Part shown: piece by piece, positions 1,225 to 48,435 of the stretch
Position numbering within the stretch: position 1 is the stretch's first letter
How the letters are laid out: every line of letters begins with the position of its first letter
IMG/VR virus record: IMGVR_UViG_3300037584_004428
Span: 1 to 59,687 of that record
Length of the DNA stretch: 59,687 nt
Reading direction: 5' to 3' (one strand)
From: a virus
Lineage: Duplodnaviria; Caudoviricetes
The notes under the pieces: generated by a model
Database searches by the model: none
Seen by the model: the letters and a program-made list of their open reading frames with translations, nothing else
Told to the model about the DNA's origin: nothing
Program-made: the position numbers and the translations under genes

Positions 1225-1356
1225 ATGCCAATATATAACGAAATATTCGAGTCATATCGAAGAAAACAAAACGAACTTAACAAAGCTATAGAGATGTTGG
1301 AGAAACATGGGTATATAGTTTACAACAAAGAAAGAATGCATGAAACCAGTAAATAA
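1225..1356 (+). CDS. Small hypothetical protein (43 aa, MPIYNEIFESYRRKQNELNKAIEMLEKHGY...), not in ORF track
   Basis: ATG after A-rich leader (aataataacaag); fills the gap between groEL and groES. Confidence 0.6.
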   Translation: MPIYNEIFESYRRKQNELNKAIEMLEKHGYIVYNKERMHETSK

Positions 1357-1597
1357 ATACATAGTAGTAAGAGAGATAGTAGAGGAATATAAAACAGATT
1401 CCGGGTTATTACTATCCTCACAAGATGTAGATACCTATAGATACAAAAAAGGATTAGTATTAAAAGTAGGTAACAATGTAGAGGTCATTAATGAAAATGA
1501 CGTGATATACTATGATAAAGCTGCAGGACATAAAATATTACTACAAGATGAACCGCTTACGATTATTCAGGAGCGTGATGTTGTAGTTGTTTTGTAG
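1340..1597 (+). CDS. groES: Co-chaperonin GroES (Cpn10)
   Basis: MKPVNKYIVV start, mobile loop KTDSGLLL, GLVLKVG, ending IIQERDVVVVL; next to groEL. Confidence 0.9.
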   Translation: MKPVNKYIVVREIVEEYKTDSGLLLSSQDVDTYRYKKGLVLKVGNNVEVINENDVIYYDKAAGHKILLQDEPLTIIQERDVVVVL

Positions 1598-3420: not shown

Positions 3421-5643
3421 ATGGCAATAAAGTTCTCTCAATTTGTAGTTCAGACTGATGCTTCTACACTTAGTCATATTGTGGGCTATGATGGAGTGGA
3501 CAATATTCAGATAACTCCAACTAATTTTTTAAATTCCCTTCTAACAGGCACAGCCGGACAAGTATTGTATTACGATACTACGGGAGTAGCTGGAGAAAAT
3601 GCTTTTTTCTGGGACAATACAAACAAGAGATTAGGTATTGGAACTACTAATCCAATAGAAAAACTTCAAGTTGTTGGCCAGCTTATTTCAAGTGGAAGTA
3701 GTAGTACATCCGCAACAACGGGTGTTGAAAGAGCCATTATGGATTTATCAAATTATAGCGCTACTGATCACTCAGCAAGATTTGGACACTTTAGAGGGGT
3801 AGAATCAGCAGGAGCTGGTCAATTAAGACTTTATACAGACAGTGTAGAGCGTTTAAGAATAGATGCAAGCGGTAACGTAGGTATTGGAACAGCTACTCCT
3901 TCTTCTAAATTAGAAGTAGACGGTGATATGAGCGTTACACCTGGCGGTGTGATTTTATTACCAGACAGTAGTTTTTTGAGATTTGGTACTAGCTCTGACG
4001 CTACTATATATCATGACGCTACAGATACTTATTTTAAAAATTTTACTGGAGACTTAATAATACAAAACAATAAAGACGATAAAGACATAATATTTCAAAG
4101 TGATAACGGCTCAGGTGGTTTAGATACATACTATCGTATAGATGGAAGCGCGCATGAAAACTCTTTTTTCAAACAAATTCATTTATATGATAATGTAAAA
4201 GCTGTTTTTGGTGCTTCTGCTGATTTAAATATTGTTCACGATGGCGCAGATTCTGTTATACAAAACAATACAGGTGATTTAGAAATTCAAAATAGGCAAG
4301 ACGATGGTGATATTGTGTTTAAGTCAGATGATGGAAGTGGTGGTGTTGCTACATATTTTTATTTAGATGGTGGCCTTGCTTCTGGCGGGTCATTATTTAC
4401 TCGTTTTCCAGATAATTCAAACATAGGATTTGGTGATAGTAATGATTTAAGAATTTATCACAATGGTATTAATTCTAATATTGAAAATTTTACAGGTAAT
4501 TTACAGATTATTAATAACAAGGATGATGGTGATATTATTTTTAGAAGCGATAATGGTTCTGGCGGAACTGCAGAATATTACAAAATTGATGGTGGATCAG
4601 TTTTAAATATATTTTATAAAGATGTTTTTCTAGGAGATAATGTTAAATCTTTATATGGTAATTCATCAGATTTACAAATATATCACGATTCTGCTAATAG
4701 TATTATAAAAAATGATGTAGGTAATCTTACTATAAGAAATGACGCAAATGATAAAGATATTGAACTTGCTTCTGATGACGGCTCGGGTGGAGTTGCTGTA
4801 TATTTCTATTTAGATGGAAGTGATGTTATGACTAGGTTTGACAAAAGACTTAGAATGTCTGACGCAGTAGGTTTACAACTAGGTTCAGGTGGTAATTTTG
4901 AAATGTATCATTTTAATGGTGTTACTACTATGGATAATTTTACAGGTAATTTAAGTATAAGTAATCAAAAAGACGATGGTGATATTATCTTTCAGTGTGA
5001 TGATGGTTCAGGTGGAGTTACTACTTACTTTTTGTTAGATGGAAGTCTCGCTGATGGCACTAATAAATTTACACGTTTTCCAGACAACAGTAGAGTTGTT
5101 TTTGGCACGGCTAGTGATTTACAAATATTTCACAATGGTACAGCTTCTTTTATTAATAATAATACTGGAGATTTAAATATTGCAAATTATGCTAATGATA
5201 AAGATATTAGATTCTTCTGTGATGATGGAAGTGGTGGTGTAGTAGAATACTTTAGATTAAGTGGTAGTACAACCAAAATTCAGATAAATAAAGAAATGCA
5301 ATTCTTTGATAATGTCAATGCAACTTTTGGTAATGCTGCGGACTTAAAAATATATCACGATGGCAATAATAGTTATATTCAAGATTCAGGAACAGGTAGT
5401 TTAAAAATACTTGCACAAGATTTTGATTTAACTAACGCGGCGGAATCAGCTTCAATGATTAGAGCTATTGATGGCGCACAAGTTGAATTATATTATGGCG
5501 GTTCTAAAAAATTAGAAACAAAAAGCACAGGTATAAATATTCAGGGAGTAACTGAATACGCGAATAACACAGCGGCTGTAGCAGCAGGACTAGTAGTGGG
5601 AGATGTTTACAGAACAGGAGACGATTTAAAAATAGTACATTAA
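3421..5643 (+). CDS. Fibre protein A1 (head or tail fibre) with ~75-aa internal repeats
   Basis: MAIKFSQF N-terminus shared with next two genes; repeated DGDIxFxSDDGSGG..YF.LDG and DL.IYH.G units; ends YRTGDDLKIVH. Confidence 0.8.
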   Translation: MAIKFSQFVVQTDASTLSHIVGYDGVDNIQITPTNFLNSLLTGTAGQVLYYDTTGVAGENAFFWDNTNKRLGIGTTNPIEKLQVVGQLISSGSSSTSATTGVERAIMDLSNYSATDHSARFGHFRGVESAGAGQLRLYTDSVERLRIDASGNVGIGTATPSSKLEVDGDMSVTPGGVILLPDSSFLRFGTSSDATIYHDATDTYFKNFTGDLIIQNNKDDKDIIFQSDNGSGGLDTYYRIDGSAHENSFFKQIHLYDNVKAVFGASADLNIVHDGADSVIQNNTGDLEIQNRQDDGDIVFKSDDGSGGVATYFYLDGGLASGGSLFTRFPDNSNIGFGDSNDLRIYHNGINSNIENFTGNLQIINNKDDGDIIFRSDNGSGGTAEYYKIDGGSVLNIFYKDVFLGDNVKSLYGNSSDLQIYHDSANSIIKNDVGNLTIRNDANDKDIELASDDGSGGVAVYFYLDGSDVMTRFDKRLRMSDAVGLQLGSGGNFEMYHFNGVTTMDNFTGNLSISNQKDDGDIIFQCDDGSGGVTTYFLLDGSLADGTNKFTRFPDNSRVVFGTASDLQIFHNGTASFINNNTGDLNIANYANDKDIRFFCDDGSGGVVEYFRLSGSTTKIQINKEMQFFDNVNATFGNAADLKIYHDGNNSYIQDSGTGSLKILAQDFDLTNAAESASMIRAIDGAQVELYYGGSKKLETKSTGINIQGVTEYANNTAAVAAGLVVGDVYRTGDDLKIVH

Positions 5644-5669
5644 GATATGGCAATAAAATTTTCACAATT
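5633..5669 (+). repeat. 37-bp exact direct repeat across the A1/A2 junction (other copy 8039-8075)
   Basis: tagtacattaagatatggcaataaaattttcacaatt at both positions. Confidence 0.95.
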
Positions 5670-8049
5670 CGTAGTAGAAACTAGCGCATCAACGATGAGC
5701 CATATTGTTGGTTATGATGGGGCGGATAATATACAGATCACACCTAACAATTTCTTTACAAGTTTTGTAACAGGTACAACAGGGCAAGTACCCTTTTTTG
5801 GTAGCACAACCTCATTACTTGGTGACGCTGGATTTAATTGGGACAACACAAACAAAAGATTAGGTATTGGAACGAGTAGTCCTAGTGCTAAATTAGAAAT
5901 AGCAGGAGGTGCTGATAGTATAGTATTAGTTACAGGAACTACAATCGCTTCAAGATTAGACATAAAAACAAATTCACATCATAGATTTTTACAAACAATA
6001 GAATCAGATGGTCGATTTAGATTATTTAATCAAGCTACAAATACAGAACAATTAAGCGTATTAAGCGGGGGTAACGTTGGTATCGGAACTACTAGCCCTG
6101 GGACAACCCTTGATGTTGCCGGGACACTAGCATCGTCAGGCATCACGCAGTTGGGAACAGGAGGGTCTAACGTTTTACTTACTTCTACAGGCGCAGGAAA
6201 TGTAGGTATTGGAAATAATAGCCCTAATAGAAAACTAACTGTTTCATCAAGTGGTGTTATTGCCGATTTCATTTCTTCATCAACATCCTCATATGTTGAT
6301 ATTGTAGGTTCAAGCGCACAATTAAGAGCTGGTGTTTTTGGAGGTGTTGTTGGATTTGCTAACGGAACTGGCACTACAGCTGAATTAGCAATAGATACAT
6401 CAGGAAATGTAGGTATTGGAACTAGTAGTCCTAGTTCTACTTTGACTTTAGGAAATGCCACAGACAACGTTGCTGAATTAAGAGTTTTAAGATCTAACGG
6501 TTCTTCTTCGACTTATGCCTCTGTTAACACGATTGGGGGGACAGGTCAATTTGGTTCAAGCGGATCAACAAGAGTCTACAGCACAGGAAACGAAAAATTA
6601 AACTTAAGAACTAATGGGTCAGATAGATTAACGATACTTTCCGGCGGTAACGTAGGTATAGGAACTACTTCGCCTACCGCTAGATTAAATGTTAAATCTA
6701 GTGGCTCAAATCTTGACGAAATATCTTTAACACATTCGGGTAACACAGTAAATATAGCTTCTCTTGGTCAAGAATCAGGACATGGAAGTTTAGTATTACG
6801 AAATAACAGTGGCGCAATACAAACTAGATTAAGTGCTGGTGGCAATAATTCTTATATTTTAAATTCTAATGTAGGTATTGGAACTAGTAGTCCTGTTACT
6901 AAATTACAAGTAGATAGCGCATCAGATTTTAGTGTTGCTTTATCTAAAAGAGGTTCAACATCTAGTGCTTTAAAATTTACTTTATCTAATCCTGCCACAA
7001 CAACTAATACTTGGAAAATAGAACATGATGCTAGCGAGAATTTAAAAATATTTGGTTATAGCGCAGATAATTTGCTTATTTCTACTAACTCTACTGAAAG
7101 AATGCGTATTACTAGTGCGGGCAACGTAGGTATTGGAACTACTAGTCCTGATCATAAGCTTGAGGTGCAAGGAGTAATATCAAGTGCAGACGCAGGTTTA
7201 CAAAAAGCAACTTTTGCAAATGTTGGTAATGATCTAGTTTTAACAGCAAATGCAGATCAAACAAATGTAACAGCTAAGATATTGTTTAATAGCTCCGGGT
7301 CAGGAGGTGGCGCTGTATCAACTAAAATGATCATTGATGGTGCTGGTAACGTAGGTATCGGGACTCCTAATCCTGCAGGTAAACTTCATGTAAAAGATGT
7401 TGGAGCCATATACACGTCTTTATCTGGTTCTGATTCGACTGTTAATTTTATTGAAAACGGTGGTAATCCATGGCGAATAGGAAACAGATCTTCTGATGAT
7501 AGTTTTAGATTTTCTCAAAGCTCTACTTCATTAGGTACTAACGTTAGGGTTACATTTGCTGACGGTGGCAACGTAGGTATTGGAACTTCTTCACCAAGTG
7601 TTAAAACTCATATACAAGGAGGAAATGCTGTAACAGGAGCATTTTATGATGGCTCAACAGTGTTAGCTGTGGAAGACACAAACCCATATATGCAAATAAT
7701 TGGGACTGATGGCGGCAATCAAGCATCATCACTTATTCTTACAACTGTTCCCGCAGCAGGAACAGGAAATAATAAACATTGGGCAGTTCAACATAGAGGT
7801 ACAACACAAAATGGTAATTTCGGTATTTCTTATGATACAACCTCTGCGTCAGGTCAAGATGGTGCTGATGGTACTGATTTATTTGTTATTAACACTACTG
7901 GTAACGTAGGTATCGGAACAACTAGCCCAACAGCTAAGTTAACAGTAGTAGGTTTAGCAGAACATGCAGATAACGCTGCGGCAATTAGTGCGGGATTAAC
8001 GACTGGTGCTTTTTACAGAACCGGTGATTTATTAAAGGTAGTACATTAA
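5647..8049 (+). CDS. Fibre protein A2 with GNVGIGTTSP repeats
   Basis: Shared N-terminus; many GNVGIGT.SP motifs; ends YRTGDLLKVVH like A1. Confidence 0.85.
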   Translation: MAIKFSQFVVETSASTMSHIVGYDGADNIQITPNNFFTSFVTGTTGQVPFFGSTTSLLGDAGFNWDNTNKRLGIGTSSPSAKLEIAGGADSIVLVTGTTIASRLDIKTNSHHRFLQTIESDGRFRLFNQATNTEQLSVLSGGNVGIGTTSPGTTLDVAGTLASSGITQLGTGGSNVLLTSTGAGNVGIGNNSPNRKLTVSSSGVIADFISSSTSSYVDIVGSSAQLRAGVFGGVVGFANGTGTTAELAIDTSGNVGIGTSSPSSTLTLGNATDNVAELRVLRSNGSSSTYASVNTIGGTGQFGSSGSTRVYSTGNEKLNLRTNGSDRLTILSGGNVGIGTTSPTARLNVKSSGSNLDEISLTHSGNTVNIASLGQESGHGSLVLRNNSGAIQTRLSAGGNNSYILNSNVGIGTSSPVTKLQVDSASDFSVALSKRGSTSSALKFTLSNPATTTNTWKIEHDASENLKIFGYSADNLLISTNSTERMRITSAGNVGIGTTSPDHKLEVQGVISSADAGLQKATFANVGNDLVLTANADQTNVTAKILFNSSGSGGGAVSTKMIIDGAGNVGIGTPNPAGKLHVKDVGAIYTSLSGSDSTVNFIENGGNPWRIGNRSSDDSFRFSQSSTSLGTNVRVTFADGGNVGIGTSSPSVKTHIQGGNAVTGAFYDGSTVLAVEDTNPYMQIIGTDGGNQASSLILTTVPAAGTGNNKHWAVQHRGTTQNGNFGISYDTTSASGQDGADGTDLFVINTTGNVGIGTTSPTAKLTVVGLAEHADNAAAISAGLTTGAFYRTGDLLKVVH

Positions 8050-8075
8050 GATATGGCAATAAAATTTTCACAATT
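8039..8075 (+). repeat. 37-bp exact direct repeat across the A2/A3 junction
   Basis: Identical to 5633-5669. Confidence 0.95.
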
Positions 8076-11000
8076 TATAACACAGACAAGCGCTTCTTCA
8101 CTTAGCCATATAGTAGGCTATAATGGGGCCGATAATATTCAAATAACTCCCGCAGACTTTTTCACAAGTTTTGTAACGGGTACAGCAGGACAAGTAGCAT
8201 ACTTTGATCCATCAAACAATTTAGCAGGAGAAAATGCTTTTTTCTGGGATAATACAAACAAGAGATTAGGTATTGGAACAAATAGTCCAAATCACAAAAT
8301 TCATGTGGTAGATGATTCTGTTACAACTGGAACCGGAACACTACTAGAGTTACAAAGTCCACCTATAAATAATGGTGGTAGCTTGAATTTAGATTTCAGA
8401 GTTAGTAGTGCTAATACAGATGATAGATATGTTGCTAGGATTTCAGGAATGAGAGAAGGAAATGGAGCATTAAGTCAATTACAATTTTGGACTGAAAGCT
8501 CAGGTTTATATCAAAGAATGACTATTACTTCTGAAGGTAACGTAGGTATTGGTACTACTAGTCCATCTTCTAAATTACAAGTATCAGGAACTTTAGATGC
8601 AACTGGTATATCACAACTTGGGTCTAGTGGTGCTAATGTATTTTTAACATCTTCTAGCGCAGGAAATGTAGGTGTTGGTACGAGTAGTCCTACAGATAAA
8701 TTAGATATAGCTGGTGCTGCAAGATTTACCTCTAATATAAGTTTTGATAGCGGAAAAGCTGGTAGAATTTATAAAGCTAGTAATCACGGTTTAGCAATAC
8801 ACGGAGTTACGGGAACTGAAAATGACTTTGCAATGTTTACTCCTACAGGTATGCTTAAAATAGTTGTACCAACTGGAACTAATAATTTAATTTTAAATCG
8901 TGATAACGGCAATGTCGGTATTGGAACAACTAGTCCTGATTCTTTATTACACGTTGCTGCAGATGTTAGCAGTGCGAACACAGGTACTATAACAATAGAA
9001 GGTAGGCCAACTGGTTTTTTAGGTGATGATATAGCAACAATTGATTTTCAGAATAACGGTAGTAAACGTGCTGATATTAGAATGGAAAGAGGTAATACAG
9101 CTACTGATTCTCAACTTGTTTTTTCTACTTCTGACGCAGGTACTCTTAATGATACATTAATAATAAATGAGGCAGGTGACGTAGGTATTGGTATTACTAG
9201 TCCTACAGCAAAGTTGCAAATTGCTGCTGATTTTTCTAGCTCACCTCAACCACTTATATTTTTATCTAATAGTGGAGCAAATAACCCTGGTGGAGGTAGT
9301 GAAATTATTTTTGGATCATCAACTTCTGCAACTACATCACTTTATAATGCAAAAATACAAGTTATTAGAAGTAGTTTAGATAATGGATCATCGGATTTGT
9401 TTTTTCAAACAACCCATGTAGCTACATCTCAATCGCCTAGTACAAAAATGACAATTAAATCTGATGGTAATGTCGGTATTGGAACAACTAGTCCAAATAG
9501 AAAATTAACACTAATTGATGATGGCGCAGCTAATGGATCACAAAATATAACCGCACAATTTTCAAATCAAACTTCAGGAGCAACTTCTAGCGCTTTATAT
9601 ATTGGTGCTAGTGCAGGTGCAGATTGGCTTATAGGTAAAAACATATACGGTGTTTCTAGCCAATCATATTTCCAAATAGGTAACCAAGCTGGAACTACAC
9701 CAGCTTTAACAATAAATCATACAACTAACAACGCAACTTTTACAGGAAGCGCAACTATAAGAAAATCTAGTTTAGGTGGCTCAACACCTATGGCTGATGG
9801 AAGTTTAGTTTTGGGTGCAGGGTCAACTGATTATTATAGTTTCAGGTTAGATTCTAATGCTGATTTATATTTAGATAAAATCTTTGGTGGTACTGCTGCT
9901 AATGTTTTAAGTATAGATAGAAGTTCTACTAATGGAAATATAACTTTTGCAGGAAATATTGAAGCATTAGGTTTGACTTTTTCAAATGGTGGAGATAGGT
10001 CTTTAACAGGTCCACAAAATGAAGATTTAATAATTAATGCTAGACCAAATGACACAACAGAGGGTTTGCATTTACAAATAAATGGCACAGATAAATTATT
10101 TATTAAACAAGATGGCTCTTCAACTTTTGCAGGTTTAGTAAAAGCACCTTTTTTTACAACCGATGGTGGTCGTGGATTCAAACAAAATAGTGTAGCTTTT
10201 GTAGGCACATATTCAAATGGCGCCGCTGCTAATGGAGCAAATGATTTAGGTAGTACAACAAATAAATGGCGAGATATTTATATATCAGGAGATATTACTT
10301 CCTCAGCAGGGGGAGCAACTTTTGCAGATGCTATTAATACAACAGGTAAAGTTAATATTAATATACCAAGTGAGGGAAATTATTTTGAAGGTGGCTCTGC
10401 TAGTTTAAGAAGATTAACAATTACAACTGGGACAAACATTTCACCTCACGCATTACATACTTTTAATATTGCATCAAGTAATGGAAAATATAAATTTGAT
10501 GTTAATGGAACAGAGCAATTTTCTATTGACTCAAGTAACGCAACTTTTGCAGGGAATATAACTGTTAGTACAGCAAGTGCTACGTTAAATTTATTATCAG
10601 GCACAAATGGTAATAGTACAATTAATTTTGCGGATCCAGCAGATAACAATGTAGGTCAAATAATATATAGACATAACGGTAATAGCATGGCGTTTGATAC
10701 TAATGACGTGGAAAGAATGCGTATTGATTCTACAGGAAGTTTATTAGTTAATACAACTACAAATCAAGGTGTTGGTGGTGTTAGTATTGATCCTATCACA
10801 GCAGGACTTACAACTATTGTAAGCAATACAAGTAGCTCAGGTGCTGAATTATTTGTCGCAAGATTTAATTCAACTCAAGTAGGTAGTATTACATTAAGTG
10901 GTACAACTGGTACTCAATTTAACACATCCTCTGATTATAGATTAAAAGAAGATTTACAAGATTTTGCAGGATTAGATATGATTTCTAAAATACTTGTTTA

Positions 11001-11202
11001 TGACTTTAAATGGAAATCAGATGACAGTAGGTCTTATGGTGTAATGGCTCACGAACTTGAAGAAGTTTTACCTCAAGCAGTTAGTGGAGAAAAAGATGCA
11101 GAAGAAATGCAAGGAGTAGATTACAGTAAAATAGTACCACTATTAATTAAATCAATACAAGAGCTTAAGGCAGAAGTAGAAGATTTAAAATCAAAAATAT
11201 AA
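8053..11202 (+). CDS. Fibre protein A3 with C-terminal intramolecular chaperone (peptidase S74)
   Basis: Shared N-terminus; GNVGIGT and ATFAG repeats; SDYRLKE...GVMAHELEEVLP...DYSKIVPLLIKSIQEL. Confidence 0.85.
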   Translation: MAIKFSQFITQTSASSLSHIVGYNGADNIQITPADFFTSFVTGTAGQVAYFDPSNNLAGENAFFWDNTNKRLGIGTNSPNHKIHVVDDSVTTGTGTLLELQSPPINNGGSLNLDFRVSSANTDDRYVARISGMREGNGALSQLQFWTESSGLYQRMTITSEGNVGIGTTSPSSKLQVSGTLDATGISQLGSSGANVFLTSSSAGNVGVGTSSPTDKLDIAGAARFTSNISFDSGKAGRIYKASNHGLAIHGVTGTENDFAMFTPTGMLKIVVPTGTNNLILNRDNGNVGIGTTSPDSLLHVAADVSSANTGTITIEGRPTGFLGDDIATIDFQNNGSKRADIRMERGNTATDSQLVFSTSDAGTLNDTLIINEAGDVGIGITSPTAKLQIAADFSSSPQPLIFLSNSGANNPGGGSEIIFGSSTSATTSLYNAKIQVIRSSLDNGSSDLFFQTTHVATSQSPSTKMTIKSDGNVGIGTTSPNRKLTLIDDGAANGSQNITAQFSNQTSGATSSALYIGASAGADWLIGKNIYGVSSQSYFQIGNQAGTTPALTINHTTNNATFTGSATIRKSSLGGSTPMADGSLVLGAGSTDYYSFRLDSNADLYLDKIFGGTAANVLSIDRSSTNGNITFAGNIEALGLTFSNGGDRSLTGPQNEDLIINARPNDTTEGLHLQINGTDKLFIKQDGSSTFAGLVKAPFFTTDGGRGFKQNSVAFVGTYSNGAAANGANDLGSTTNKWRDIYISGDITSSAGGATFADAINTTGKVNINIPSEGNYFEGGSASLRRLTITTGTNISPHALHTFNIASSNGKYKFDVNGTEQFSIDSSNATFAGNITVSTASATLNLLSGTNGNSTINFADPADNNVGQIIYRHNGNSMAFDTNDVERMRIDSTGSLLVNTTTNQGVGGVSIDPITAGLTTIVSNTSSSGAELFVARFNSTQVGSITLSGTTGTQFNTSSDYRLKEDLQDFAGLDMISKILVYDFKWKSDDSRSYGVMAHELEEVLPQAVSGEKDAEEMQGVDYSKIVPLLIKSIQELKAEVEDLKSKI

Positions 11203-39744: not shown

Positions 39745-41577
39745 ATGGCAAGCAATAAAACTTATTACAACCGAGGTGGCAATAGATTTACAGGGATGTT
39801 TGATTCCGGTGAGCAATTTGTTCCAGTAGACTGGTCTAAGATAACAGGTGATATTGTAGATGAACTACAAACTATTCAGTCTGAGAAACAAAAAAAACGA
39901 GACGACATCCAAACAAAAACGGATGAGCTACTTACAGATCTTAGAGATTATCAAGCAGGAGGAAACAATACGTTTAACGGATATGTATTAGACGGATCAA
40001 AGCAGGTTAAAGATTACATGCTGATGCAAAACAAACTATTAAAGCAAGGTAAGTTAGATCCAAACTCTTATACAAGAAGCCAGCAATTGCTTCAAGATGA
40101 CTGGAATTCTTTTCAAGCTGCGGCTGAAACTTTCAATACAGATTATGCAGAGGCTATGAAAGCAGCGAATGCAGGTGATACTTCAAAGCTAGGTATGCTT
40201 AGTTTTGATAAACTACAAAGCGCTACAGATATTCAGAAAAGTAGATTAGTAATTAACACAGATGGTAGATTGTATTCACAAACTGGTGAAGGTCAACTGA
40301 TTGGTTTTACCAATATGAATGCTAGGCAAAAAGATATTCCTAAAAACTATAACATAATAGAAGGAACTAAAGCTTTTGCATCTACGCTAGGGACATATAG
40401 AGAAGCTAATCCTAATTTAACGATAGAAGACATTACAAAACAACCTGCATTTACAAAAGCTAGAGATACATTTATAGAGGGTGTACTTAATCAAGGAACG
40501 GGTAGAGATTTTTTAAGTATACTTACTCAAAATGGATACGAGCTAACAGAAAATCCTGATGAAGTAAACGAGAATACAATACTAGTAAAAGCAGACTCAA
40601 ACGGCATGCTTCAACCCGATAAAGATTCTTTAAATAAACACAGAGATGCTGCTAAGAAAATATTACAAGAAGCGATTGGGGCGCAACTAGATTATAAAGA
40701 ATCACCGGGTACTAAAACTGCTCAAGAAAGAATTATAGAAAAAGGAGAGGCAGAGAAAATAAAAAGTGCAGGAGATAATTATGCGTTAACCGCGCAATTG
40801 TTTAGCACAAACGGTGACTTGAATGAGTCTGCAGCTACTGAATTAGCACAAGCAAATCCAAACATAGATAGAATTCAATTAACAAAAGATGGTATTAATA
40901 TTGAGCTAGCAACAGGTCAACCCCCTATTCCTGTTAAATTTAAAAATGATGATGGTTCTTTCAAGACACCTTCAAACTTAACAAATGAAGTGTTTGCTGT
41001 ATTTTATCGTGGTGATAATGCTTTAACAGGCACACAGCTTGAGGAAGTAGAGTCATCTTACTTTGATGGTTTAAGTGAAAGTGCTACTACTGCGTTTGCT
41101 GGAACTGAATATGATATTGCTGAGTTGAGTGAAAACATACCAGGTTTCTTGTTTGATGTAAAAAGGGCTAAAAAATTAGCTAGGTTTGATTTTGAAAAAA
41201 TAAAAATTGGAGGATTAGATAGTGGAACAGCTGTAAATAATCACAACAAAGATGTTACTAAAATAAATAATACAGATAGTTCAGAAGCTGAGAAAAAAAA
41301 TCAAATAAAACAAGCTAATCTATCAATGATGAATTTATTGATGCCTAGTTTGAAATACACTGATGCTCAAACAAAAAAACAAACCCTATTGCCTATAGAG
41401 CAATTTAATGATGGTGCCGTGGTGTACGTAGATGATGCTGGAAAAACACAAACAATTATAGACACAAATGGTCAAGTTAACACAACCTTGCTGTCAAATA
41501 TTATAAATCAAAAACAAGTAGATCCGGGGACAACAGGTGTGTCTGAAGGCATTGATACTTCAAAATATGATAAATAG
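39745..41577 (+). CDS. Putative internal virion (ejection) protein 2
   Basis: 610-aa helical protein between ejection protein 1 and the giant gene. Confidence 0.55.
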   Translation: MASNKTYYNRGGNRFTGMFDSGEQFVPVDWSKITGDIVDELQTIQSEKQKKRDDIQTKTDELLTDLRDYQAGGNNTFNGYVLDGSKQVKDYMLMQNKLLKQGKLDPNSYTRSQQLLQDDWNSFQAAAETFNTDYAEAMKAANAGDTSKLGMLSFDKLQSATDIQKSRLVINTDGRLYSQTGEGQLIGFTNMNARQKDIPKNYNIIEGTKAFASTLGTYREANPNLTIEDITKQPAFTKARDTFIEGVLNQGTGRDFLSILTQNGYELTENPDEVNENTILVKADSNGMLQPDKDSLNKHRDAAKKILQEAIGAQLDYKESPGTKTAQERIIEKGEAEKIKSAGDNYALTAQLFSTNGDLNESAATELAQANPNIDRIQLTKDGINIELATGQPPIPVKFKNDDGSFKTPSNLTNEVFAVFYRGDNALTGTQLEEVESSYFDGLSESATTAFAGTEYDIAELSENIPGFLFDVKRAKKLARFDFEKIKIGGLDSGTAVNNHNKDVTKINNTDSSEAEKKNQIKQANLSMMNLLMPSLKYTDAQTKKQTLLPIEQFNDGAVVYVDDAGKTQTIIDTNGQVNTTLLSNIINQKQVDPGTTGVSEGIDTSKYDK

Positions 41578-41580
41578 AAT

Positions 41581-44500
41581 ATGAATGAAGAAGCTTTACA
41601 AGATGCGTATAGGTTGTTTTCCAATGGCGGTTACAGTGGTTCTCTAGAAGAATTTAAAGTTTTAATTGATTCAAATCCAGAGGCCCTAAATGATTCTTAC
41701 AAATTGTTTAGAGGTGGAGGTTATTCTGGAGACTTTGAAGCCTACAAAACCTTGATAGGTCAAAAAAAAAAAGAAGAAATTACCGAAGAACTTTCAGACT
41801 CAACTTCGGAAGATTCTCTATTGGATTCACAATTTTCTATCACCGAAAGTAAAACCGCAAAAGGTGTAAATAAAGGTATTGATGTAGTTACTGATGCTAT
41901 TACAGGGTTTAATCCCACGAATCCCATATCCACAATTACTAATCTGTTAACAAAGCCTAAAAACATTTCAAAAATATTTGATATTGTTTCTGAGCCAGGT
42001 GTTAGTAGTGAGGTAAAAGAAAAAAAAGAAACTACAGAAGAGCCTAAGTTTACAGACCCAACTATCCTTAGCAAATCTTTTGAAGAAGATGCAGGGGTAA
42101 ATGTTGAGACGGATGAAACCAAACTTAATATGGTTCAAGATTTGTATAGTGGAATGTCAGGTTTGAACTTAGATGAACTATCTAGATACCTGGATTCAGA
42201 TGTAGAATATGAAGGTGTTAAATCAAAAAGAAATCGTATTATAGATCAGGCCCTAGCTGGCACTATAGACAGTGATGCAAAACTTGAAAGCTTGCAAGAA
42301 GATTTTAAGGACTTGTCTGATGCGGGTATATACGCTGACATGAAAAGACAAGAGGCTTTAAGTGTATACACTAAAGATAAAGTCAACTATATAAATAAAA
42401 AAATTCAAGCCATTGATTCCTTGATGGCGGAAGGCAAAGAAGATTACGAAGGATTAAACTTATTAGATACTAAACAAAACTTAATCAACGAAAGAACCTC
42501 TTTAATAAAATCTGTCAACAGATTTTCCAGACAGTATCTTCCCTTCTTTAATAAGTACATGCAAGATAAGAAACAAGATTTAGCTAATAAATATGTTTCT
42601 GGAGATATGGGATTATATAACATGGGGGACATTACCTCTGGTATTGGAACTGGGTTGTCAAAATTTGAACAAGGGGCCGGCAAAGCAGTTAGTGATGTAA
42701 CAAGCGTTGTGTTTGACGCAATTGGATTGGATAATGTGGCGGACAGAATAAGAAAGAATAGCGAAATGGAGGAATTAAAAAAACTAGATCCGTCTTCTTT
42801 TATGATCGCTAGAGGTAAAGTTGTAAACCATGAGGGTAAAAAATATATTGTCACTCCTGAAGGTCAAATTATAGATGAAGAAAGAGAGGTAGATGTATCC
42901 TTTTTTGGTGAGCAAGCAGGTATAGATTTAGGGGCCATACGTAATAAAGCCAAAGAATCAAATGAATTAGAAACAACTTCTAGTTTCTATGGTATGATGA
43001 CAGGTAGCTCTAATGTCTTAGGTAATTTAGCCGTTCAAATAATAGGAATGAAGGGTAGTGGTAAGGTTTTAAAAGCCGGTGGCAAATATGTGACTAAACC
43101 ACTAACCGGTTTAGCATTAGGAAAACAAGCTACAATGCGTGCAAACGCTATGCTTAGTACAGGAGCTATAGTTTACAGTGGTACGTATAACCAGACATAC
43201 CAAGAGGCTTTGGATCTAGGGTTGAATGATGCGCAAGCACAAGTATTGGCGGATGACATTGCAGATGTAACCGGTATTGTAGGTGGGTTAACTGCAGTTT
43301 TAATATCTCCAAACATTGGTGGTCAAAAACTACTTGACAAAATAAGCGTTAAAGAAATGACTAAACGAGTTGTTGAAGGTAAAACCACAAATACTAGAAA
43401 ACAAATAGCTTTAGATTTTATAAAAGGAGCTTTGCCTGAAGGTACATTAGAAGCAGTGCAAGAAAACCTTGAATTAGTTGCTGAAGATTATGGAAGGAAA
43501 AAAGCAAACTTAAAATTGGGTGATGAAATATTTAAACCTGTATTAACAACCAACAGTGTACTTAATAATTCCGCAGCGGCATTTGCTACCGCGGGTCTTT
43601 TAGGTGGTGCGGGTAATGTAGGTAAGTCAAAAATTGTATTATACAATAGATTAGGAAGTAGTCAGGAATTGTTTCAGAAGTACATGAAAATGTATGTGAA
43701 TCAAGATAGAATATCTCAGCCAGAAGCTGACAGGATAGTTAAGGAAGTTGAGAGTTATCATCAATTTAAAAACTCAGTTCCATCTAACATAAGAAATAAG
43801 CCGGAGGCTATTGAAATAACCAACTTGCTTGCACAAAAAAATCAACTGAAAGATAAATTAAAAACACAAGATGAAGTTTTTCATGAGGGAATTAATAAAG
43901 AAATTAGTGAGATAGATGCGCAGATACAAACATTAACAAATCAATCTACATCTACAACTAAAGAACCTGAAGTAGAACCTAAAACAACAGAACAAGATGC
44001 CAGTACGAAGCCGAGCGCAGTGGCGCAAACTAGCCCAGACGAATCCACAACTACTGAGGAAGTGGTTGAAGGAGTATCCAGTGAGGTTCAGCAACCTACC
44101 GGAACGAGTCAAACCCAAACTGACAGTGACGTCGACACGACAACGCAGGAGGAAATAACACCTGAAGATGAATTAACTGCTGAAGTAGAAGTGGTGACTG
44201 AACAAGAAGCAGAACAGGAGTTAGACGAACTTCTTAATGAAGCTGAGGCTAAAAATCAAAATGTTACAACTGTAGGTACTGAAGGTAGAAATAGAAGTAT
44301 ATCTACTAAAGCAAGTGCGCAAACAAAAGCTGAAGGATTTAACACTAGGACGCCACAAGGAAAAAGAAGATTTAATAAAATTAAAAGTGAAATAACACAG
44401 GCTTTTAACAAAAAATTAAGAACATTAACTAGAGCATCAAATTTATTAACTAAAATTTTACCAAACACTAAAATTATTTTTGCAGAAACAAAAGCTGACT

Positions 44501-47500
44501 ATAACAGGTTAAGAGGCAAAGATTCTAATTCAGTAGGAGTTTTTAGGGTTACGGATGATGGAAAGACTGCTATATTTATTGACGTTAGCGCTCTCAGCAC
44601 TGATAAAGGTATAGAGACTTTAGCCCACGAATTATTTCATGCGGTATTATATAAGAAATTCGGCACAGACAAGGCAAAGATTAGAAGAGTGACTAACAAG
44701 ATGGTCAAAGAACTTCAAAAAACTTTACAGAATTCTAATGATCAAGAGCTTAAAGATGTGGGTAATGCGTTAGTTAAATTTAGTAAACAGTATCCAGAGG
44801 CAAAACAAACAGAAGAGTTCTTATCAGAAACTTTAGGTTATCTGGCTGAAAAATTTGATGCGGTACGAAGAGATTCAAAAGCTTTAAAAATTGTAACTGA
44901 TTTTGTAAATAAAATTAGTAACCTTTTAGGTTTAGGTAAAGTAAAAAAAGAATTAGCTAAGGATCCTGACAGAGTGTTAAGAGCTTTAGCTTTGGTCGCT
45001 AAAAAACTTCAGAGCGGTGAAGTACTACAGGATACAGACTTTGATATTATAAACGAGATAGAAACAGAGGTGGATCAAGAAGGGGTCGATGCGCCTATAG
45101 TTACAGGTGCAGTAGACTTTGTTAGTGATACAGATACAACCACAGATGAAGAAGTAACTGTTACCGTGCTCGAAGATGTTGAGGTAGATGAAACAACTAC
45201 GGAAGACAGAGTAGTTGAAAAAAAGAAAAAGCCTACGACCACTGATGCCACATCAACTACATTGCTTAGAAAAATATCTACTGAAATTAAAAAGGCAATC
45301 AAACAAGCAAAGAGCCAACAAAAGAAAATTAAAAGAGAAGTGGCTTTAGCTATAAGAGAATCCGTAAAGCAAGGTACACTGTCAGCAAAGCAAGCCTTGG
45401 TACTCGCCAAGAGAGCTTTGACCTTGAATGTAGATAGCCCCTTAGCCGTTGAAAGATTTATCTTATATACAAAGAAAGCTTTTGCTGATGCAGATAGTAT
45501 ATTCAAATTAAAAACAGCAAACACATTTAGAAAACAATTAAAGAAAATTGGTAATAGTAAAACTATAGATGCAGCTATTGCGGCATCTGCAAAAAACTTT
45601 TCACTTATGGATCCTATCTATGTAGAGGATCTTGACCTATACAATCAGTTAGCGAAAGAACTTATTGATGGATCTAAATCTAGTAGAGTATTAAAAGGTG
45701 AAGTAAAACAAAAGAGAACCGCTGACCTTGCAAAGATAAACGCATTTGCTGACAACCAACTTGAAAAAGAAAAAGTTGAAATAGAGGCTACAATGAGAGA
45801 TGAGTTTGAAGCCATGACTGGCATCGACGCAAAGGATATGACTTATGCACAGATGAAAAGTTATTTAGATGATAAAACTCCAGCACCTAGTGAACAAGAT
45901 GAATCGATCATTCGTAAAGCTGTAACAACTATGTTCAATAAATATTCCGAAACCATCAAACAAATGTTATCAAGTGGTGTGGATGCGGCGACAGGAAACC
46001 CCTTAGACTTAAGTACGAATCAAAAATCTATTGTGAAAGAGTTTATGGATATGGACTTATCAGTAATGGGAATCAAAGATGTTATAAGATCAGTTGATGC
46101 ATTAAATAATTTTATTGTTAACAGAAACACTGGCGGTATGGAAACAGTGGTAAAAAACAATACTGGAGCTTCTAACGTATCACAAATGGTGAAGGATAAT
46201 AAAACCGTTAAGCCCAGAATCAAATTTAAAGAGTTATACGAAGGTGTAGTTATTCCTTATTTTAAACAAATTGCAACAATGCCTATGACACTTAAGACTG
46301 TGTTGGGTAGCTTAGATAATTACATAGATCTTCAAATTAAAAGTGGGCTAAGAGATTTTATTAGCGGTCAAGCCAAGGCTATAGTTAATACCAATAATAT
46401 GGTAAAAGATTATGTGAAAAAGTTTGGCGATTTAAAACCAAATAATGAAGTATTTGATTCGACAAGAAACAATATAGAAAGGGGTTTATATGCGTTTTTA
46501 GCTAGAACTACTAGTGGGGATTTAGATTCTAGTAAAAAAGAATTTAAAAGAAGGTTAAGATTGGTAGAGCAATCTATAGCAAAATATCAAAGAGGCGATA
46601 AAGAGCAGAAAGAAACAGCAGAGATTTTACAAAACATATATGACAAAATTAAAGATGCTAATAGTTCATCTGAAATAGAAAATTCTTTTGAACAAGTTAA
46701 CAAAGATGCAGTTCTTTTCTGGCAAAATGAATGGGCAAAAGTTTATCCAACATTAGCTCAAACAAGTTACAATATATATAATCAGATATTAGGCAATGAT
46801 GTTAACTATACACCAGATAAATTTTCAGTATTTGAAGCTGATGTAGAAGTTGACTTAGACAATGAAAGTGCGTTTGGATCTTTTTCAGGGACTTTGTTTA
46901 ATAAAAAAGCAGGAGTATTATTTGAATCAACAAAACCACAGCAATTACCAAAAAATAGAATTATTAACTTTAACTTTGATTCTAATATGTCAAACTCTAT
47001 GGAGGCTGCTCAAATGGATGTACAAACAGCTCCAGCTTATAATCAAATAAAGGGATTCGTTCAATCACCTGAGCTAAATAAACTAATTCCTGATGAAAGC
47101 GTAAGAAAATTAGTTGTTGATAAGATAGTCAGTTTTATTAACACCGCAAAAAAACAAAAATATTTACCTAAAGAAGAAGCGGGGGCGGTGTCTAAAGGAC
47201 TTGATTTCCTTGCAAACCTTGGTGTGGGTAGAGCTTTGATACAAGTATTTCAACCTGTAAAACAAGTATTACCTGTTGCACTGAACACCATTATAAATTC
47301 TAAAGGAAATCTAGATATTGCTTCTTTTACCAACGTACCTCTTCAGAAATGGATTGACTCTGTTGGCACATCTATAGCTATAAGAGGCGGTTTATCAAGC
47401 GCTGATTTAGCAAAGCTTGAAAATTTTACAAATAGCATGGAATTTTTGGAATTACTTAAAGATATTAAATTAAATCCTGTAAAAAGTTCTATAAAATTAA

Positions 47501-48435
47501 TTAAAAAATTAAACACTTTAGGTTTAGAAATATTTTTAGTGAAACCAGATAAAGCAATTGCCAGGGTCTCTTTCATTACATATTACAAACAAAAATTAAA
47601 AGAAAAAGGAGTTGATGTTAACACTATTGATTGGGAAACACACAAGGCAGATAAAGAAGCGTTAGCATATGCAGAAGCTCAAGTTGATTTACAACAAAAT
47701 ATTTCTAGCTCTGACATGTTTGGTGAATTTTTTAAGTCAGATAACTTTTACAAAAAAAATCTCAGAAGAATATTTCTCTCTTTTGCATCTTTCGCAATGA
47801 ATTTAAAAACCAGGATATATACAGATCTACCTGTGTTGTTTAGCAAGACCGCTAGTAAATCAGAAAAGCAAAGAGCTGCGCTGTCTATTGCTTCAGCAGG
47901 CGTAGAGATAGCGGCTTTTCAAGCTATCGGAGGATTAATAAGCGCTATGATGTCTAAAATTGGATATGATGATGATGAGAAAAAAAGAAAAAAACGAATT
48001 GACAATATAATAAAAGGAAGAAAAGGAAATATAGTTACGGAATTTTTAAATCCCGTTGCTCATCCACTTGTTGATGATTATGTTTTAAAAGGAATAAATG
48101 AAACCATGAGCCTTATTACCGGAGATGATGAGAAGATATTTTTTGACAGTGACACTGGCAACATAGAGGTAAGTACTGTAACCGGTCAATTCGGTATTGC
48201 AATTAGTCGTGGTACTGAAATTATAAGGATGGGCATGCTTGCATTTGGAGATGGAGTGTTTACAAATCGATTTGGAAATAAAAGAAAGATAAGTAAAGAG
48301 TCTCAAGAAAAATTAAAACCATTACTAATACCTGCATTGTTATACAACCTTGGTTTGTTGCCGGCAGAGGCAGGCACTTATACAAGGTACCAAGTAAGAG
48401 AAGCTAAAAGCAAAAATACTACGAAGGCTAAATAA
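41581..48435 (+). CDS. Giant internal virion protein (2284 aa) with zincin HExxH domain
   Basis: LAHELFH...EEFLSE; duplicated N-terminal AY.LF..GGYSG..E.FK.LI motif; Gly/Ala hydrophobic stretches. Confidence 0.7.
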   Translation: MNEEALQDAYRLFSNGGYSGSLEEFKVLIDSNPEALNDSYKLFRGGGYSGDFEAYKTLIGQKKKEEITEELSDSTSEDSLLDSQFSITESKTAKGVNKGIDVVTDAITGFNPTNPISTITNLLTKPKNISKIFDIVSEPGVSSEVKEKKETTEEPKFTDPTILSKSFEEDAGVNVETDETKLNMVQDLYSGMSGLNLDELSRYLDSDVEYEGVKSKRNRIIDQALAGTIDSDAKLESLQEDFKDLSDAGIYADMKRQEALSVYTKDKVNYINKKIQAIDSLMAEGKEDYEGLNLLDTKQNLINERTSLIKSVNRFSRQYLPFFNKYMQDKKQDLANKYVSGDMGLYNMGDITSGIGTGLSKFEQGAGKAVSDVTSVVFDAIGLDNVADRIRKNSEMEELKKLDPSSFMIARGKVVNHEGKKYIVTPEGQIIDEEREVDVSFFGEQAGIDLGAIRNKAKESNELETTSSFYGMMTGSSNVLGNLAVQIIGMKGSGKVLKAGGKYVTKPLTGLALGKQATMRANAMLSTGAIVYSGTYNQTYQEALDLGLNDAQAQVLADDIADVTGIVGGLTAVLISPNIGGQKLLDKISVKEMTKRVVEGKTTNTRKQIALDFIKGALPEGTLEAVQENLELVAEDYGRKKANLKLGDEIFKPVLTTNSVLNNSAAAFATAGLLGGAGNVGKSKIVLYNRLGSSQELFQKYMKMYVNQDRISQPEADRIVKEVESYHQFKNSVPSNIRNKPEAIEITNLLAQKNQLKDKLKTQDEVFHEGINKEISEIDAQIQTLTNQSTSTTKEPEVEPKTTEQDASTKPSAVAQTSPDESTTTEEVVEGVSSEVQQPTGTSQTQTDSDVDTTTQEEITPEDELTAEVEVVTEQEAEQELDELLNEAEAKNQNVTTVGTEGRNRSISTKASAQTKAEGFNTRTPQGKRRFNKIKSEITQAFNKKLRTLTRASNLLTKILPNTKIIFAETKADYNRLRGKDSNSVGVFRVTDDGKTAIFIDVSALSTDKGIETLAHELFHAVLYKKFGTDKAKIRRVTNKMVKELQKTLQNSNDQELKDVGNALVKFSKQYPEAKQTEEFLSETLGYLAEKFDAVRRDSKALKIVTDFVNKISNLLGLGKVKKELAKDPDRVLRALALVAKKLQSGEVLQDTDFDIINEIETEVDQEGVDAPIVTGAVDFVSDTDTTTDEEVTVTVLEDVEVDETTTEDRVVEKKKKPTTTDATSTTLLRKISTEIKKAIKQAKSQQKKIKREVALAIRESVKQGTLSAKQALVLAKRALTLNVDSPLAVERFILYTKKAFADADSIFKLKTANTFRKQLKKIGNSKTIDAAIAASAKNFSLMDPIYVEDLDLYNQLAKELIDGSKSSRVLKGEVKQKRTADLAKINAFADNQLEKEKVEIEATMRDEFEAMTGIDAKDMTYAQMKSYLDDKTPAPSEQDESIIRKAVTTMFNKYSETIKQMLSSGVDAATGNPLDLSTNQKSIVKEFMDMDLSVMGIKDVIRSVDALNNFIVNRNTGGMETVVKNNTGASNVSQMVKDNKTVKPRIKFKELYEGVVIPYFKQIATMPMTLKTVLGSLDNYIDLQIKSGLRDFISGQAKAIVNTNNMVKDYVKKFGDLKPNNEVFDSTRNNIERGLYAFLARTTSGDLDSSKKEFKRRLRLVEQSIAKYQRGDKEQKETAEILQNIYDKIKDANSSSEIENSFEQVNKDAVLFWQNEWAKVYPTLAQTSYNIYNQILGNDVNYTPDKFSVFEADVEVDLDNESAFGSFSGTLFNKKAGVLFESTKPQQLPKNRIINFNFDSNMSNSMEAAQMDVQTAPAYNQIKGFVQSPELNKLIPDESVRKLVVDKIVSFINTAKKQKYLPKEEAGAVSKGLDFLANLGVGRALIQVFQPVKQVLPVALNTIINSKGNLDIASFTNVPLQKWIDSVGTSIAIRGGLSSADLAKLENFTNSMEFLELLKDIKLNPVKSSIKLIKKLNTLGLEIFLVKPDKAIARVSFITYYKQKLKEKGVDVNTIDWETHKADKEALAYAEAQVDLQQNISSSDMFGEFFKSDNFYKKNLRRIFLSFASFAMNLKTRIYTDLPVLFSKTASKSEKQRAALSIASAGVEIAAFQAIGGLISAMMSKIGYDDDEKKRKKRIDNIIKGRKGNIVTEFLNPVAHPLVDDYVLKGINETMSLITGDDEKIFFDSDTGNIEVSTVTGQFGIAISRGTEIIRMGMLAFGDGVFTNRFGNKRKISKESQEKLKPLLIPALLYNLGLLPAEAGTYTRYQVREAKSKNTTKAK
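43997..44158 (+). CDS. Nested +1-frame basic microprotein (53 aa)
   Basis: MPVRSRAQWRKLAQTNPQLLRKWLKEYPVRFSNLPERVKPKLTVTSTRQRRRK; A-rich leader; visible local GC increase. Confidence 0.65.
   Translation: MPVRSRAQWRKLAQTNPQLLRKWLKEYPVRFSNLPERVKPKLTVTSTRQRRRK

What the first reader, a model, noticed from the sequence alone, without database searches (positions are those of the whole stretch)
43997..44158. Hidden gene nested in the +1 frame of the giant ejection-protein gene
Seen: a 53-codon ORF (MPVRSRAQWRKLAQTNPQLLRKWLKEYPVRFSNLPERVKPK...RRRK) begins after an A-rich leader (aaaacaacagaacaagATGcca; the same acaagATGcca precedes ORF 1225). It coincides with a visibly GC/CpG-rich patch where the main frame encodes an acidic low-complexity linker. 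It resembles small phage proteins of the MPFKS.AQ...W....LPERV type that I recall as free-standing genes. Inference: real dual coding of a basic peptide over an acidic linker, perhaps a partner or DNA-binding cargo of the ejection protein.
Basis: partly seen in the sequence, partly recalled or inferred. Interest (0 to 1): 0.75.

Follow-up and report, generated by a model that had tools for sequence, protein, structure and literature searches.

The report
Small gene hidden inside giant gene
A 53-codon gene for a small, strongly basic protein is written in a second reading frame inside a marine phage's giant virion-protein gene, and the same hidden gene is kept in many other phages, including cultured ones where it is not annotated.

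Summary
ORF 43997..44158 (+) lies in the +1 frame of the 2,284-aa ORF 41581..48435, in that gene's most GC-rich stretch.

ORF length alone is unremarkable. It is the second longest +1 ATG-ORF in the gene.

Comparison shows selection on the nested frame:
- 7 of 7 relatives covering the site keep the same start, stop and length.
- Frame-0 third positions vary in 15% of codons here against 62% elsewhere in the gene.
- dN/dS is 0.19 in +1 against 1.22 in frame 0.
- The four next-longest +1 ORFs are each broken in 2 to 4 of 4 relatives.

A profile of nested copies alone finds free-standing 40-82-aa proteins (MPxxSxAQW...LPE+V plus a basic tail) at E down to 1e-11. The family has no Pfam match and no known function.

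In 55 loci (30 distinct peptides) members lie inside long ORFs, always in +1. This includes the cultured Flavobacterium phage elemoC_14-1A, where it is unannotated. A genome about 93% identical to the window carries an unalignable giant gene except for this island.

The most likely mechanism is independent internal initiation. Function is unknown. My guess is a virion-associated, nucleic-acid-binding protein. Translation has not been shown.

The parts
43997..44158 (+). Nested gene: 53 codons plus TAA, in the +1 frame of the giant gene. Product is a 6.5-kDa, pI-12 protein, MPVRSRAQWRKLAQTNPQLLRKWLKEYPVRFSNLPERV followed by a basic tail.
   Evidence: Retained in 7 of 7 relatives covering the site. 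dN/dS is 0.19 in +1 against 1.22 in frame 0. It is a family member: the window's only match to profile A2 has E 1.4e-25 (A2 contains the peptide itself). A profile of nested copies alone finds free-standing proteins at 1e-11.
41581..48435 (+). Host gene: 2,284-aa ORF, the last gene of the + strand structural block. It is hypervariable between otherwise near-identical phages.
   Evidence: tblastn matches the 'structural protein' of 68 Flavobacterium elemo phage records over aa 907-1118. It is unalignable with G002 except for the nested island.
43996..44157 (+). Frame-0 codons 806-859 of the giant protein. This is an acidic Ser/Thr-rich linker that shares its DNA with the nested gene.
   Evidence: Frame-0 third positions vary in 8 of 54 codons here against 1,358 of 2,193 elsewhere.
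43976..43996 (+). A-rich leader, in the +1 frame between the TAG stop at 43973-43975 and the ATG. It is the presumed internal ribosome entry region. It has no Shine-Dalgarno motif.
   Evidence: The start-context score beats 88% of other + strand ATGs but falls below 82% of real starts.
43980..43996 (.). Mosaic breakpoint. Alignments to L002-L005 restart at 43980. Identity is about 66% with gaps upstream and 77-84% downstream.
   Evidence: In G002 the conserved island is 43959-44158.
44626..44640 (+). HELFH (HExxH) motif, aa 1016-1020 of the giant protein, about 470 nt downstream of the nested gene. It may mark a zincin-like peptidase module.
   Evidence: The only support is a weak phrog_87 'metallo-protease' match (E 0.011). 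There is no Pfam match.

Best explanation
The 162 nt at 43997..44158 code in two frames. Frame 0 gives a tolerant acidic linker (aa 806-859) between the N- and C-terminal modules of a giant virion protein. Frame +1 gives a separate 53-aa basic protein.

How it is made (inferred): ribosomes start on their own at ATG 43997 on the late mRNA of the giant gene.

What the protein is (shown): a member of a widespread, uncharacterised family of small phage proteins. The AlphaFold2 model has an N-terminal two-helix hairpin, then a PV.[YF]..LPE+V segment and a Lys/Arg tail. In other phages the family is either nested in the same way or stands free, in some cases beside portal, terminase or capsid genes.

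What it does (inferred, about 35%): a virion-assembly or head-internal protein that binds nucleic acid through its tail and acts with a conserved component (portal, capsid, DNA or a host target), not with a particular giant-protein domain.

Origin (inferred): the small gene is the conserved unit, and the N and C modules of the giant gene are joined, and swapped, across it.
For: Retention:
- The same ATG, stop and length are kept in 7 of 7 relatives covering the site, whose giant proteins are 54-83% identical.
- It is also kept in 4 further loci whose giant protein shares only 28% identity.

Selection on the +1 frame:
- Of 42 variable columns, 21 fall at +1 third positions and 9 at frame-0 third positions.
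- Frame-0 third positions vary in 8 of 54 codons here against 1,358 of 2,193 elsewhere, while frame-0 amino-acid variability is equal (0.43 against 0.44). The five 54-codon windows with the least frame-0 third-position variation, out of 244, all overlap the ORF.
- NG86 over 78 pairs of 13 distinct sequences gives dN/dS 0.19 in +1 (0.12 for codons 1-37) against 1.22 in frame 0.
- Controls: the four next-longest +1 ORFs of the gene each lose the start or gain a stop in 2 to 4 of 4 relatives.

Homology:
- A profile of nested copies only (A1) found 50 proteins at E<=1e-3 among 1.84 billion. Of the 36 I read, most are 40-82 aa and aligned from residue 1.

Ancient nesting:
- L009 (giant protein 32% identical) and the cultured phage elemoC_14-1A carry diverged members (45 and 42 aa) in the same +1 frame.
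- In 55 of 55 nested loci (32 distinct DNA sequences, 30 distinct peptides) the small frame is +1 of the long frame.

Own start:
- GGAG-type motifs lie 9-14 nt upstream in 4 of 16 nested loci examined, 2 of which (L031, L032) are the higher-GC loci of the 16. The low-GC loci have A-rich leaders instead.
- A +1 stop lies 0-12 codons before the ATG in all but one locus, and directly abuts it in L029.

Only copy and context:
- It is the only copy of the family in this 98%-complete genome.
- Free-standing copies lie next to portal or TerL in 3 loci, and near MCP or TerL in 2 more, of 8 free-standing loci looked at.
Against: No expression data exist. RNA-library contigs are sparse and none covers the start.

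The start context is only middling. It ranks 19 of 134 ATGs in the giant gene and scores below 82% of real starts in this genome.

No family or structure gives a function: Pfam, PHROGs, PDB sequences and BFVD folds were all uninformative.

One ENA-derived protein (P0003) has the domain joined in frame to the N-terminal module without a Met. A fused product is therefore conceivable in some genomes.

dN/dS estimates in overlapping frames are biased. The contrast between frames is what counts, not the absolute values.

Many of the 55 loci are the same or closely related contigs held in two collections.
Confidence: 0.87

Rival explanations
1. The +1 sequence is not a separate protein. Ribosomes translating the giant gene shift frame just before it and make a truncated N-terminal module of about 860 aa with a basic C-terminal domain.
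For: P0003 (764 aa) carries the domain in frame at the end of the N-terminal module. The domain also occurs at the C-end of a 325-aa protein, P0013.
Against: The +1 frame is closed by TAG 7 codons before the ATG in the window. It is closed 0-12 codons before the ATG in all nested loci but one, and directly in L029. No slippery run was seen in the window's 21 open nt (read by eye).

The ATG is present in all 30 distinct nested peptides and aligns with Met1 of free-standing members. SD-like motifs precede it in 4 loci.

P0003 differs from its full-length cluster mate P0094 by a gap of about 30 aa. Its cluster holds many fragment lengths, so it may be a deletion variant or an assembly error.
Confidence: 0.05
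2. The conserved block is a nucleic-acid element, such as an RNA structure, a recombination site or a packaging or regulatory site. The open +1 frame is a by-product.
For: Conservation is sharply bounded at the DNA level and mosaic breakpoints sit at its edge.
Against: Substitutions follow +1 codon periodicity and are mostly synonymous there.

Distant members (L009, elemo, L029-L045) are recognised by the protein profile, for example at E 1.5e-15, in genomes of 31-61% GC.

The RNA fold is unremarkable: z = -1.12, and 28 of 200 shuffles fold as well. There is no Rfam match.
Confidence: 0.03
3. It is a relic. A once free-standing small gene was swallowed when two genes fused, it is no longer translated, and it is kept only because the linker DNA is constrained.
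For: Free-standing homologues exist and the flanking modules behave as separate mosaic units.
Against: Frame 0 is not conserved here (dN/dS 1.22) while +1 is (0.19). Start and stop are kept in 30 distinct variants spanning deep divergence. It is the genome's only copy.
Confidence: 0.03
4. It is a chance ORF that stays open because the patch is GC-rich.
For: Length alone is not exceptional: second of 62 +1 ATG-ORFs.
Against: All the comparative evidence above. The four control ORFs of similar length are broken in relatives.
Confidence: 0.01

Closest known systems
Rz/Rz1 spanin genes of phage lambda and relatives (recalled, not tested here)
   Same: A small gene lies wholly embedded in the +1 frame of a larger same-strand gene. 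As I recall, across phages the pair occurs embedded, overlapped or separated. That parallels the nested and free-standing forms seen here.
   Different: Rz1 is a lipoprotein with a signal sequence and lipobox Cys. This peptide has no Cys and no hydrophobic stretch. The host gene is a giant virion protein rather than a lysis gene. No interaction between the two products is shown.
Unnamed family of small phage proteins, MPxxSxAQW...LPE+V plus a basic tail; partly covered by phrog_1375, 'unknown function'
   Same: The window's peptide aligns from Met1 with free-standing members at 33-59% identity. M1, S5, L34 and P35 are invariant. The profile of nested copies finds these proteins at E down to 1.4e-11.
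   Different: The window's copy is nested rather than free-standing. The window peptide itself does not reach phrog_1375 at E<=1. Only 4 of 34 aligned members (best E 0.002) and the L047 fusion (E 2.2e-11) do.
DUF3008 (PF11450)
   Same: From recall only: small proteins that start MPxKSKAQ and end near LPE. The protein atlas placed a cluster with 15% DUF3008 members at score 0.84.
   Different: The Pfam model does not match the peptide, any of the 34 family members, or any frame of the window. It is not filed here.
Polyvalent / giant packaged phage proteins (Iyer et al. 2017, PMC5512222; passages read)
   Same: The host gene is a giant multi-module protein with an HExxH motif, encoded in the structural module.
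   Different: No Pfam polyvalent-protein domain is matched. The paper's text has no occurrence of 'overlapping' or 'frameshift'. No nested gene is described in the passages searched.
Small basic head-internal, ejected proteins such as T4 internal proteins and T7 gp6.7 (recalled; analogy of function only)
   Same: Small, basic, and encoded among head genes.
   Different: No sequence similarity was tested or claimed. Packaging and ejection of this protein are not shown.

Membership tests
Embedded same-strand overlapping gene | ORF wholly inside a longer ORF, on the same strand, in another frame | tested here: met
   43997..44158 lies inside 41581..48435 at offset 1.
Embedded same-strand overlapping gene | Purifying selection on the embedded frame, seen as suppressed synonymous change in the host frame | tested here: met
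   Frame-0 third positions vary in 15% of codons against 62% elsewhere. dN/dS is 0.19 in +1 against 1.22 in frame 0. Control ORFs are broken in relatives.
Embedded same-strand overlapping gene | Its own translation start | tested here: inconclusive
   The ATG is kept in all 30 distinct nested peptides. SD-like motifs occur in 4 of 16 loci examined. The window's own start context scores only middling.
Embedded same-strand overlapping gene | Protein product detected | not testable with these tools
   RNA-library contigs are sparse and none covers the start. No proteomics data are at hand.
Small phage protein family MPxxSxAQW...LPE+V (unnamed) | Significant profile match over the 40-aa N-terminal domain, starting at Met1 | tested here: met
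   Profile A1 (nested copies only) hits free-standing proteins of 45-72 aa at E 1.4e-11 to 1e-7. See alignment A2.
Small phage protein family MPxxSxAQW...LPE+V (unnamed) | Basic C-terminal tail | tested here: met
   The tail reads ...STRQRRRK and pI is 12.0. Tails are Lys/Arg-rich in most A2 rows.
phrog_1375 | HMM match | tested here: inconclusive
   The window peptide has no match at E<=1. 4 of 34 family members match (best E 0.002). The L047 N-terminal domain matches at 2.2e-11.
DUF3008 (PF11450) | Pfam model match | tested here: not met
   No match for the peptide at E<=1. None of 34 members match at E<=0.1. No frame of the window matches at E<=10.
Spanin outer-membrane subunit (Rz1-like) | Signal peptide with lipobox Cys | tested here: not met
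   The peptide has no Cys and no hydrophobic segment.
Programmed-frameshift extension | Open +1 frame and a slippery site upstream of the shifted part | tested here: not met
   A +1 stop lies 7 codons upstream in the window. It lies 0-12 codons upstream in all nested loci but L031. No slippery run was seen by eye.
Polyvalent protein (host gene) | Match to the zincin MPTase or other polyvalent-protein-associated Pfam domains | tested here: not met
   No Pfam family reaches its cut-off. There is only an HELFH motif and a weak phrog_87 match at E 0.011.

The most novel reading that the evidence does not exclude
The small nested gene is the real conserved unit of this locus across many podovirus-like phages. 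It may encode a near-universal head-internal or ejected factor. Giant virion-protein genes would then have been built, and be continually rebuilt, by joining interchangeable N- and C-terminal modules across it, read in the -1 frame as a harmless acidic linker. On this reading the nested gene also acts as the homologous crossover point that lets phages swap giant-protein halves, which would explain why it is the only island of identity in an otherwise replaced gene.
Probability: 0.3. Interest if true: 0.85.

Novelty: new variant of a known kind. Interest (0 to 1): 0.78.

Why it matters
Gene callers discard ORFs nested inside longer genes. A conserved phage protein family has therefore gone unannotated in dozens of genomes, including 68 records of cultured Flavobacterium phages (one record checked in detail).

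The case is unusually clean. Nested and free-standing homologues both exist, and the host gene is hypervariable. Selection on the second frame can therefore be read directly.

It offers three things:
- a tractable model (Flavobacterium sp. BAL314 with elemo phages) for how internal initiation works in Bacteroidota, which as I recall do not rely on Shine-Dalgarno pairing;
- a marker for finding giant virion-protein genes that have diverged beyond sequence recognition;
- a lead to a small basic protein that may take part in head assembly or genome delivery in abundant marine phages.

Tried and rejected
Searches that found nothing useful:
- Pfam and PHROGs gave no family for the window peptide. 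tblastn of the window peptide against 50,697 phage records gave nothing below E 5. The same search with the L036, L032 and P0025 peptides gave no match. Short queries have low power, and the L044 peptide later did find the elemo phages.
- blastn of the region against phage records gave no match.
- P0003 was not found in viral contigs, so its DNA and the nature of its fusion could not be checked.
- The PDB sequence profile search gave nothing below E 0.8. In the BFVD fold search the best hits are uncharacterised 44-aa phage proteins at E 0.14, with none at E<=0.001. The two-helix AlphaFold2 model (pLDDT 81) is too small to name a fold.
- The genome-contig scan gave one locus, a MAG contig, so prophage context could not be studied.

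Tests without a verdict:
- Complex prediction of the small protein with the window's portal gave no answer (score 0.00), so nothing follows from it.
- Sequencing runs: RNA-library runs hold only small shares of the stretch. The nine contig pieces laid (six of them 151 nt, at least 97% alike) lie at 43000-44471 and none crosses the nested ATG. DNA carry-over cannot be excluded, so nothing follows about expression.

Alternatives rejected:
- RNA element: the fold z-score is -1.12 and there is no Rfam family.
- DUF3008 membership.
- The idea that ORF 1225 is a paralogue. It shares the 11-mer ACAAGATGCCA but not the protein sequence, and profile A2 finds one copy only in the window.

- Alignments A2 and A3 were too diverse for pattern scans, so narrower ones were used.

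Literature: searches found no description of this nested gene (passages of PMC5512222). The paper describing the elemo phages was not found in the library.
Full report
WHAT IS THERE

The window is a whole, 98%-complete virus record of 59,687 bp with 34% GC. It lies in the +1 frame of the 2,284-aa ORF 41581..48435.

That long ORF closes a + strand block holding large terminase, portal and several 'virion structural protein' genes. The stretch has 52.5% GC and 11 CpG, and is the most GC-rich 162 nt of the gene. Frame 0 reads an acidic Ser/Thr-rich linker there (pI 4.05), while the nested peptide has pI 12.0.

By length alone the ORF is not special. It is the second longest of 62 ATG-ORFs in the gene's +1 frame.

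IS IT A GENE? COMPARATIVE EVIDENCE

A scan of viral contigs with the giant protein gave 9 loci.
- All 7 loci that cover the site (giant proteins 54-83% identical) keep the same ATG, the same stop and 53 codons. The +1 peptide is better conserved than frame 0.
- One locus ends before the site.
- The ninth, L009 (32% identical), has its own diverged nested copy elsewhere in the alignment.

Substitution pattern:
- Of 42 variable columns, 21 fall on +1 third positions and only 9 on frame-0 third positions.
- In five full-length genes, frame-0 third positions vary in 62% of 2,193 codons outside the ORF but in 15% (8 of 54) inside. Frame-0 amino-acid variability is the same (0.44 and 0.43).
- The five 54-codon windows with the least frame-0 third-position change, out of 244, all overlap the ORF. 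All 9 windows in which first positions vary more than third lie within aa 755-871.
- Nei-Gojobori estimates over 78 pairs of 13 distinct sequences give dN/dS 0.19 in +1 (0.12 for codons 1-37) and 1.22 in frame 0. Such estimates are biased in overlaps, so it is the contrast that counts.

As negative controls, the four next-longest +1 ORFs of the gene each lose their start or gain stops in 2 to 4 of 4 relatives. The finding's ORF is intact in all 4.

An RNA-element reading is not supported. The fold z-score is -1.12 and there is no Rfam match.

HOMOLOGUES

A profile built only from nested copies (A1) was scored against 1.84 billion proteins. It found 50 at E<=1e-3 and 3 at E<=1e-10. Of the 36 I read, most are 40-82 aa and align from residue 1: MP[IVF][KR]S[KR]AQW..LA...P.L..KWQ.E.PV.[YF]..LPE[RHK]V, followed by a basic tail.

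The family has no Pfam match and no informative name. A few members reach phrog_1375, 'unknown function'. DUF3008 is not matched.

AlphaFold2 with the family alignment gives two helices (residues 6-15 and 17-26), then an extended segment and a loose tail (pLDDT 81). Fold and PDB searches name nothing.

NESTING IS WIDESPREAD

Pattern scans with family alignments gave these counts:
- 22 viral loci: in 13 the small ORF lies inside a long same-strand ORF (411-2,909 aa, some cut by the locus end), in 8 it stands free, and in 1 it is the N-terminus of a 733-aa ORF.
- 30 metagenome loci: 28 nested and 2 free.
- 1 locus in 185,579 species genomes.

Counting the window and the loci, there are 55 nested loci. 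They hold 32 distinct DNA sequences and 30 distinct peptides, and many loci are the same contigs held in two collections. In all 55 the small frame is +1 of the long frame. The nested loci span 31-61% GC.

Most of their giant proteins show no BLASTP likeness to the window's. Of the 13 compared, only L009, L012, L030 and L035 do.

The cultured Flavobacterium phage vB_FspP_elemoC_14-1A (NC_062743.1) carries a 42-aa member in the +1 frame of its 3,694-aa 'structural protein' gp20, and no annotation marks it. The same tblastn match lies under 'structural protein' in 68 elemo records.

HOW IT IS PROBABLY MADE

I infer independent initiation, for four reasons:
- The ATG is present in all 30 distinct nested peptides and aligns with Met1 of free-standing members.
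- A +1 stop lies 0-12 codons upstream in all nested loci but one.
- GGAG-type motifs sit 9-14 nt upstream in 4 of 16 nested loci examined. Two of these, L031 and L032, are the higher-GC loci of the 16 (54% and 61% GC); L039 and L045 have 43% and 35%.
- The low-GC loci, the window among them, have A-rich leaders instead. As I recall, this fits initiation in Bacteroidota.

Against a strong start, the window's context scores better than 88% of other ATGs but below 82% of real starts.

One ENA protein, P0003, has the domain fused in frame to the N-terminal module. Compared with its full-length cluster mate it lacks about 30 aa, and its cluster holds many fragments. It may be a deletion variant or an assembly error.

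MOSAIC CONTEXT

The window and record G002 are about 93% identical in DNA over most of their length. Positions 40710-48434 are unalignable except for an island at 43959-44158. Within the ORF 153 of 162 nt are identical, and 7 of the 9 differences fall at +1 third positions. Against L002-L005 the alignment breaks at 43980: about 66% identity upstream and 77-84% downstream.

The nested gene thus follows the genome backbone while the halves of the giant gene are exchanged around it. This argues that its partner is a conserved component, not a particular giant-protein domain.

FUNCTION

Function is not shown. Free-standing copies have these neighbours:
- L040: the small gene's ATG overlaps the portal gene's stop.
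- L027: between TerL and portal.
- L044: between portal and the capsid genes.
- L046: after capsid and tail-fibre-like genes.
- L041: 1.5 kb from TerL.
- The other three free-standing loci (L028, L038, L048) gave no readable context.

With its basic tail, this suggests a virion-assembly or head-internal, nucleic-acid-binding protein (my estimate about 35%). A complex prediction with the portal gave no answer, and RNA-library contigs were uninformative.

NOVELTY

Embedded +1 genes are known in phages; Rz1 in Rz is the example I recall. I found no description of this family or of a gene nested in giant virion-protein genes (searches; passages of PMC5512222). The library lacks many subscription papers, and the paper describing the elemo phages was not found.

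VERDICT

This is a real overlapping gene (about 0.87). It is a new variant of a known kind. Its function is open.

Noticed in passing
window 3..1217, 1225..1356, 1340..1597: The translations read like a chaperonin pair: a GroEL-like ORF cut by the window start and an 85-aa GroES-like ORF. This is my reading, and no family search was run. A 43-aa ORF (MPIYNEIF...) sits between them and is preceded by the same 11-mer ACAAGATGCCA as the nested gene (2 matches against 0.07 expected).
   Followed up: partly
window 40710..48434: The giant gene is a replaced or hypervariable cassette between two genomes that are otherwise about 93% identical in DNA. Only the nested ORF aligns.
   Followed up: partly
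window 44626..44640: An HELFH (HExxH) motif lies at aa 1016 of the giant protein. There is a weak phrog_87 'metallo-protease' match (E 0.011) and a 30% identical stretch (aa 907-1118) in elemo phage 'structural protein'. It may be a zincin-like peptidase module.
   Followed up: no
window 3421..11202: Three large adjacent ORFs (740, 800 and 1,049 aa) each hit several places in the 7.5-13.1 kb region of record G002 at 65-90% identity. This suggests a family of repeated, recombining genes, possibly tail fibre-like. It was not examined.
   Followed up: no
P0003 and P0094 (ENA proteins; no DNA held): In one contig a gap of about 30 aa joins the N-terminal module of a related giant protein in frame to the small-protein domain. 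This is either a natural fusion variant or an assembly error. The cluster of 33 members holds many fragment lengths.
   Followed up: partly
L047:5001-7202; P0009; P0013; P0021: The 40-aa domain also occurs fused to other proteins. It is at the N-end of a 733-aa ORF in a 71%-GC contig, before a DUF5661 domain (P0009, E 1.3e-11), at the C-end of a 325-aa protein, and near the N-end of a 1,565-aa protein with an intein-like insert.
   Followed up: partly
L009:4622-4759; L080:7001-7129: Diverged nested members (45 and 42 aa) sit at different relative positions in their giant proteins, aa 541 of 2,497 and aa 1,220 of 3,694. In each case frame 0 reads a Gln/Glu/Gly/Val-rich linker over the nested gene.
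   Followed up: yes
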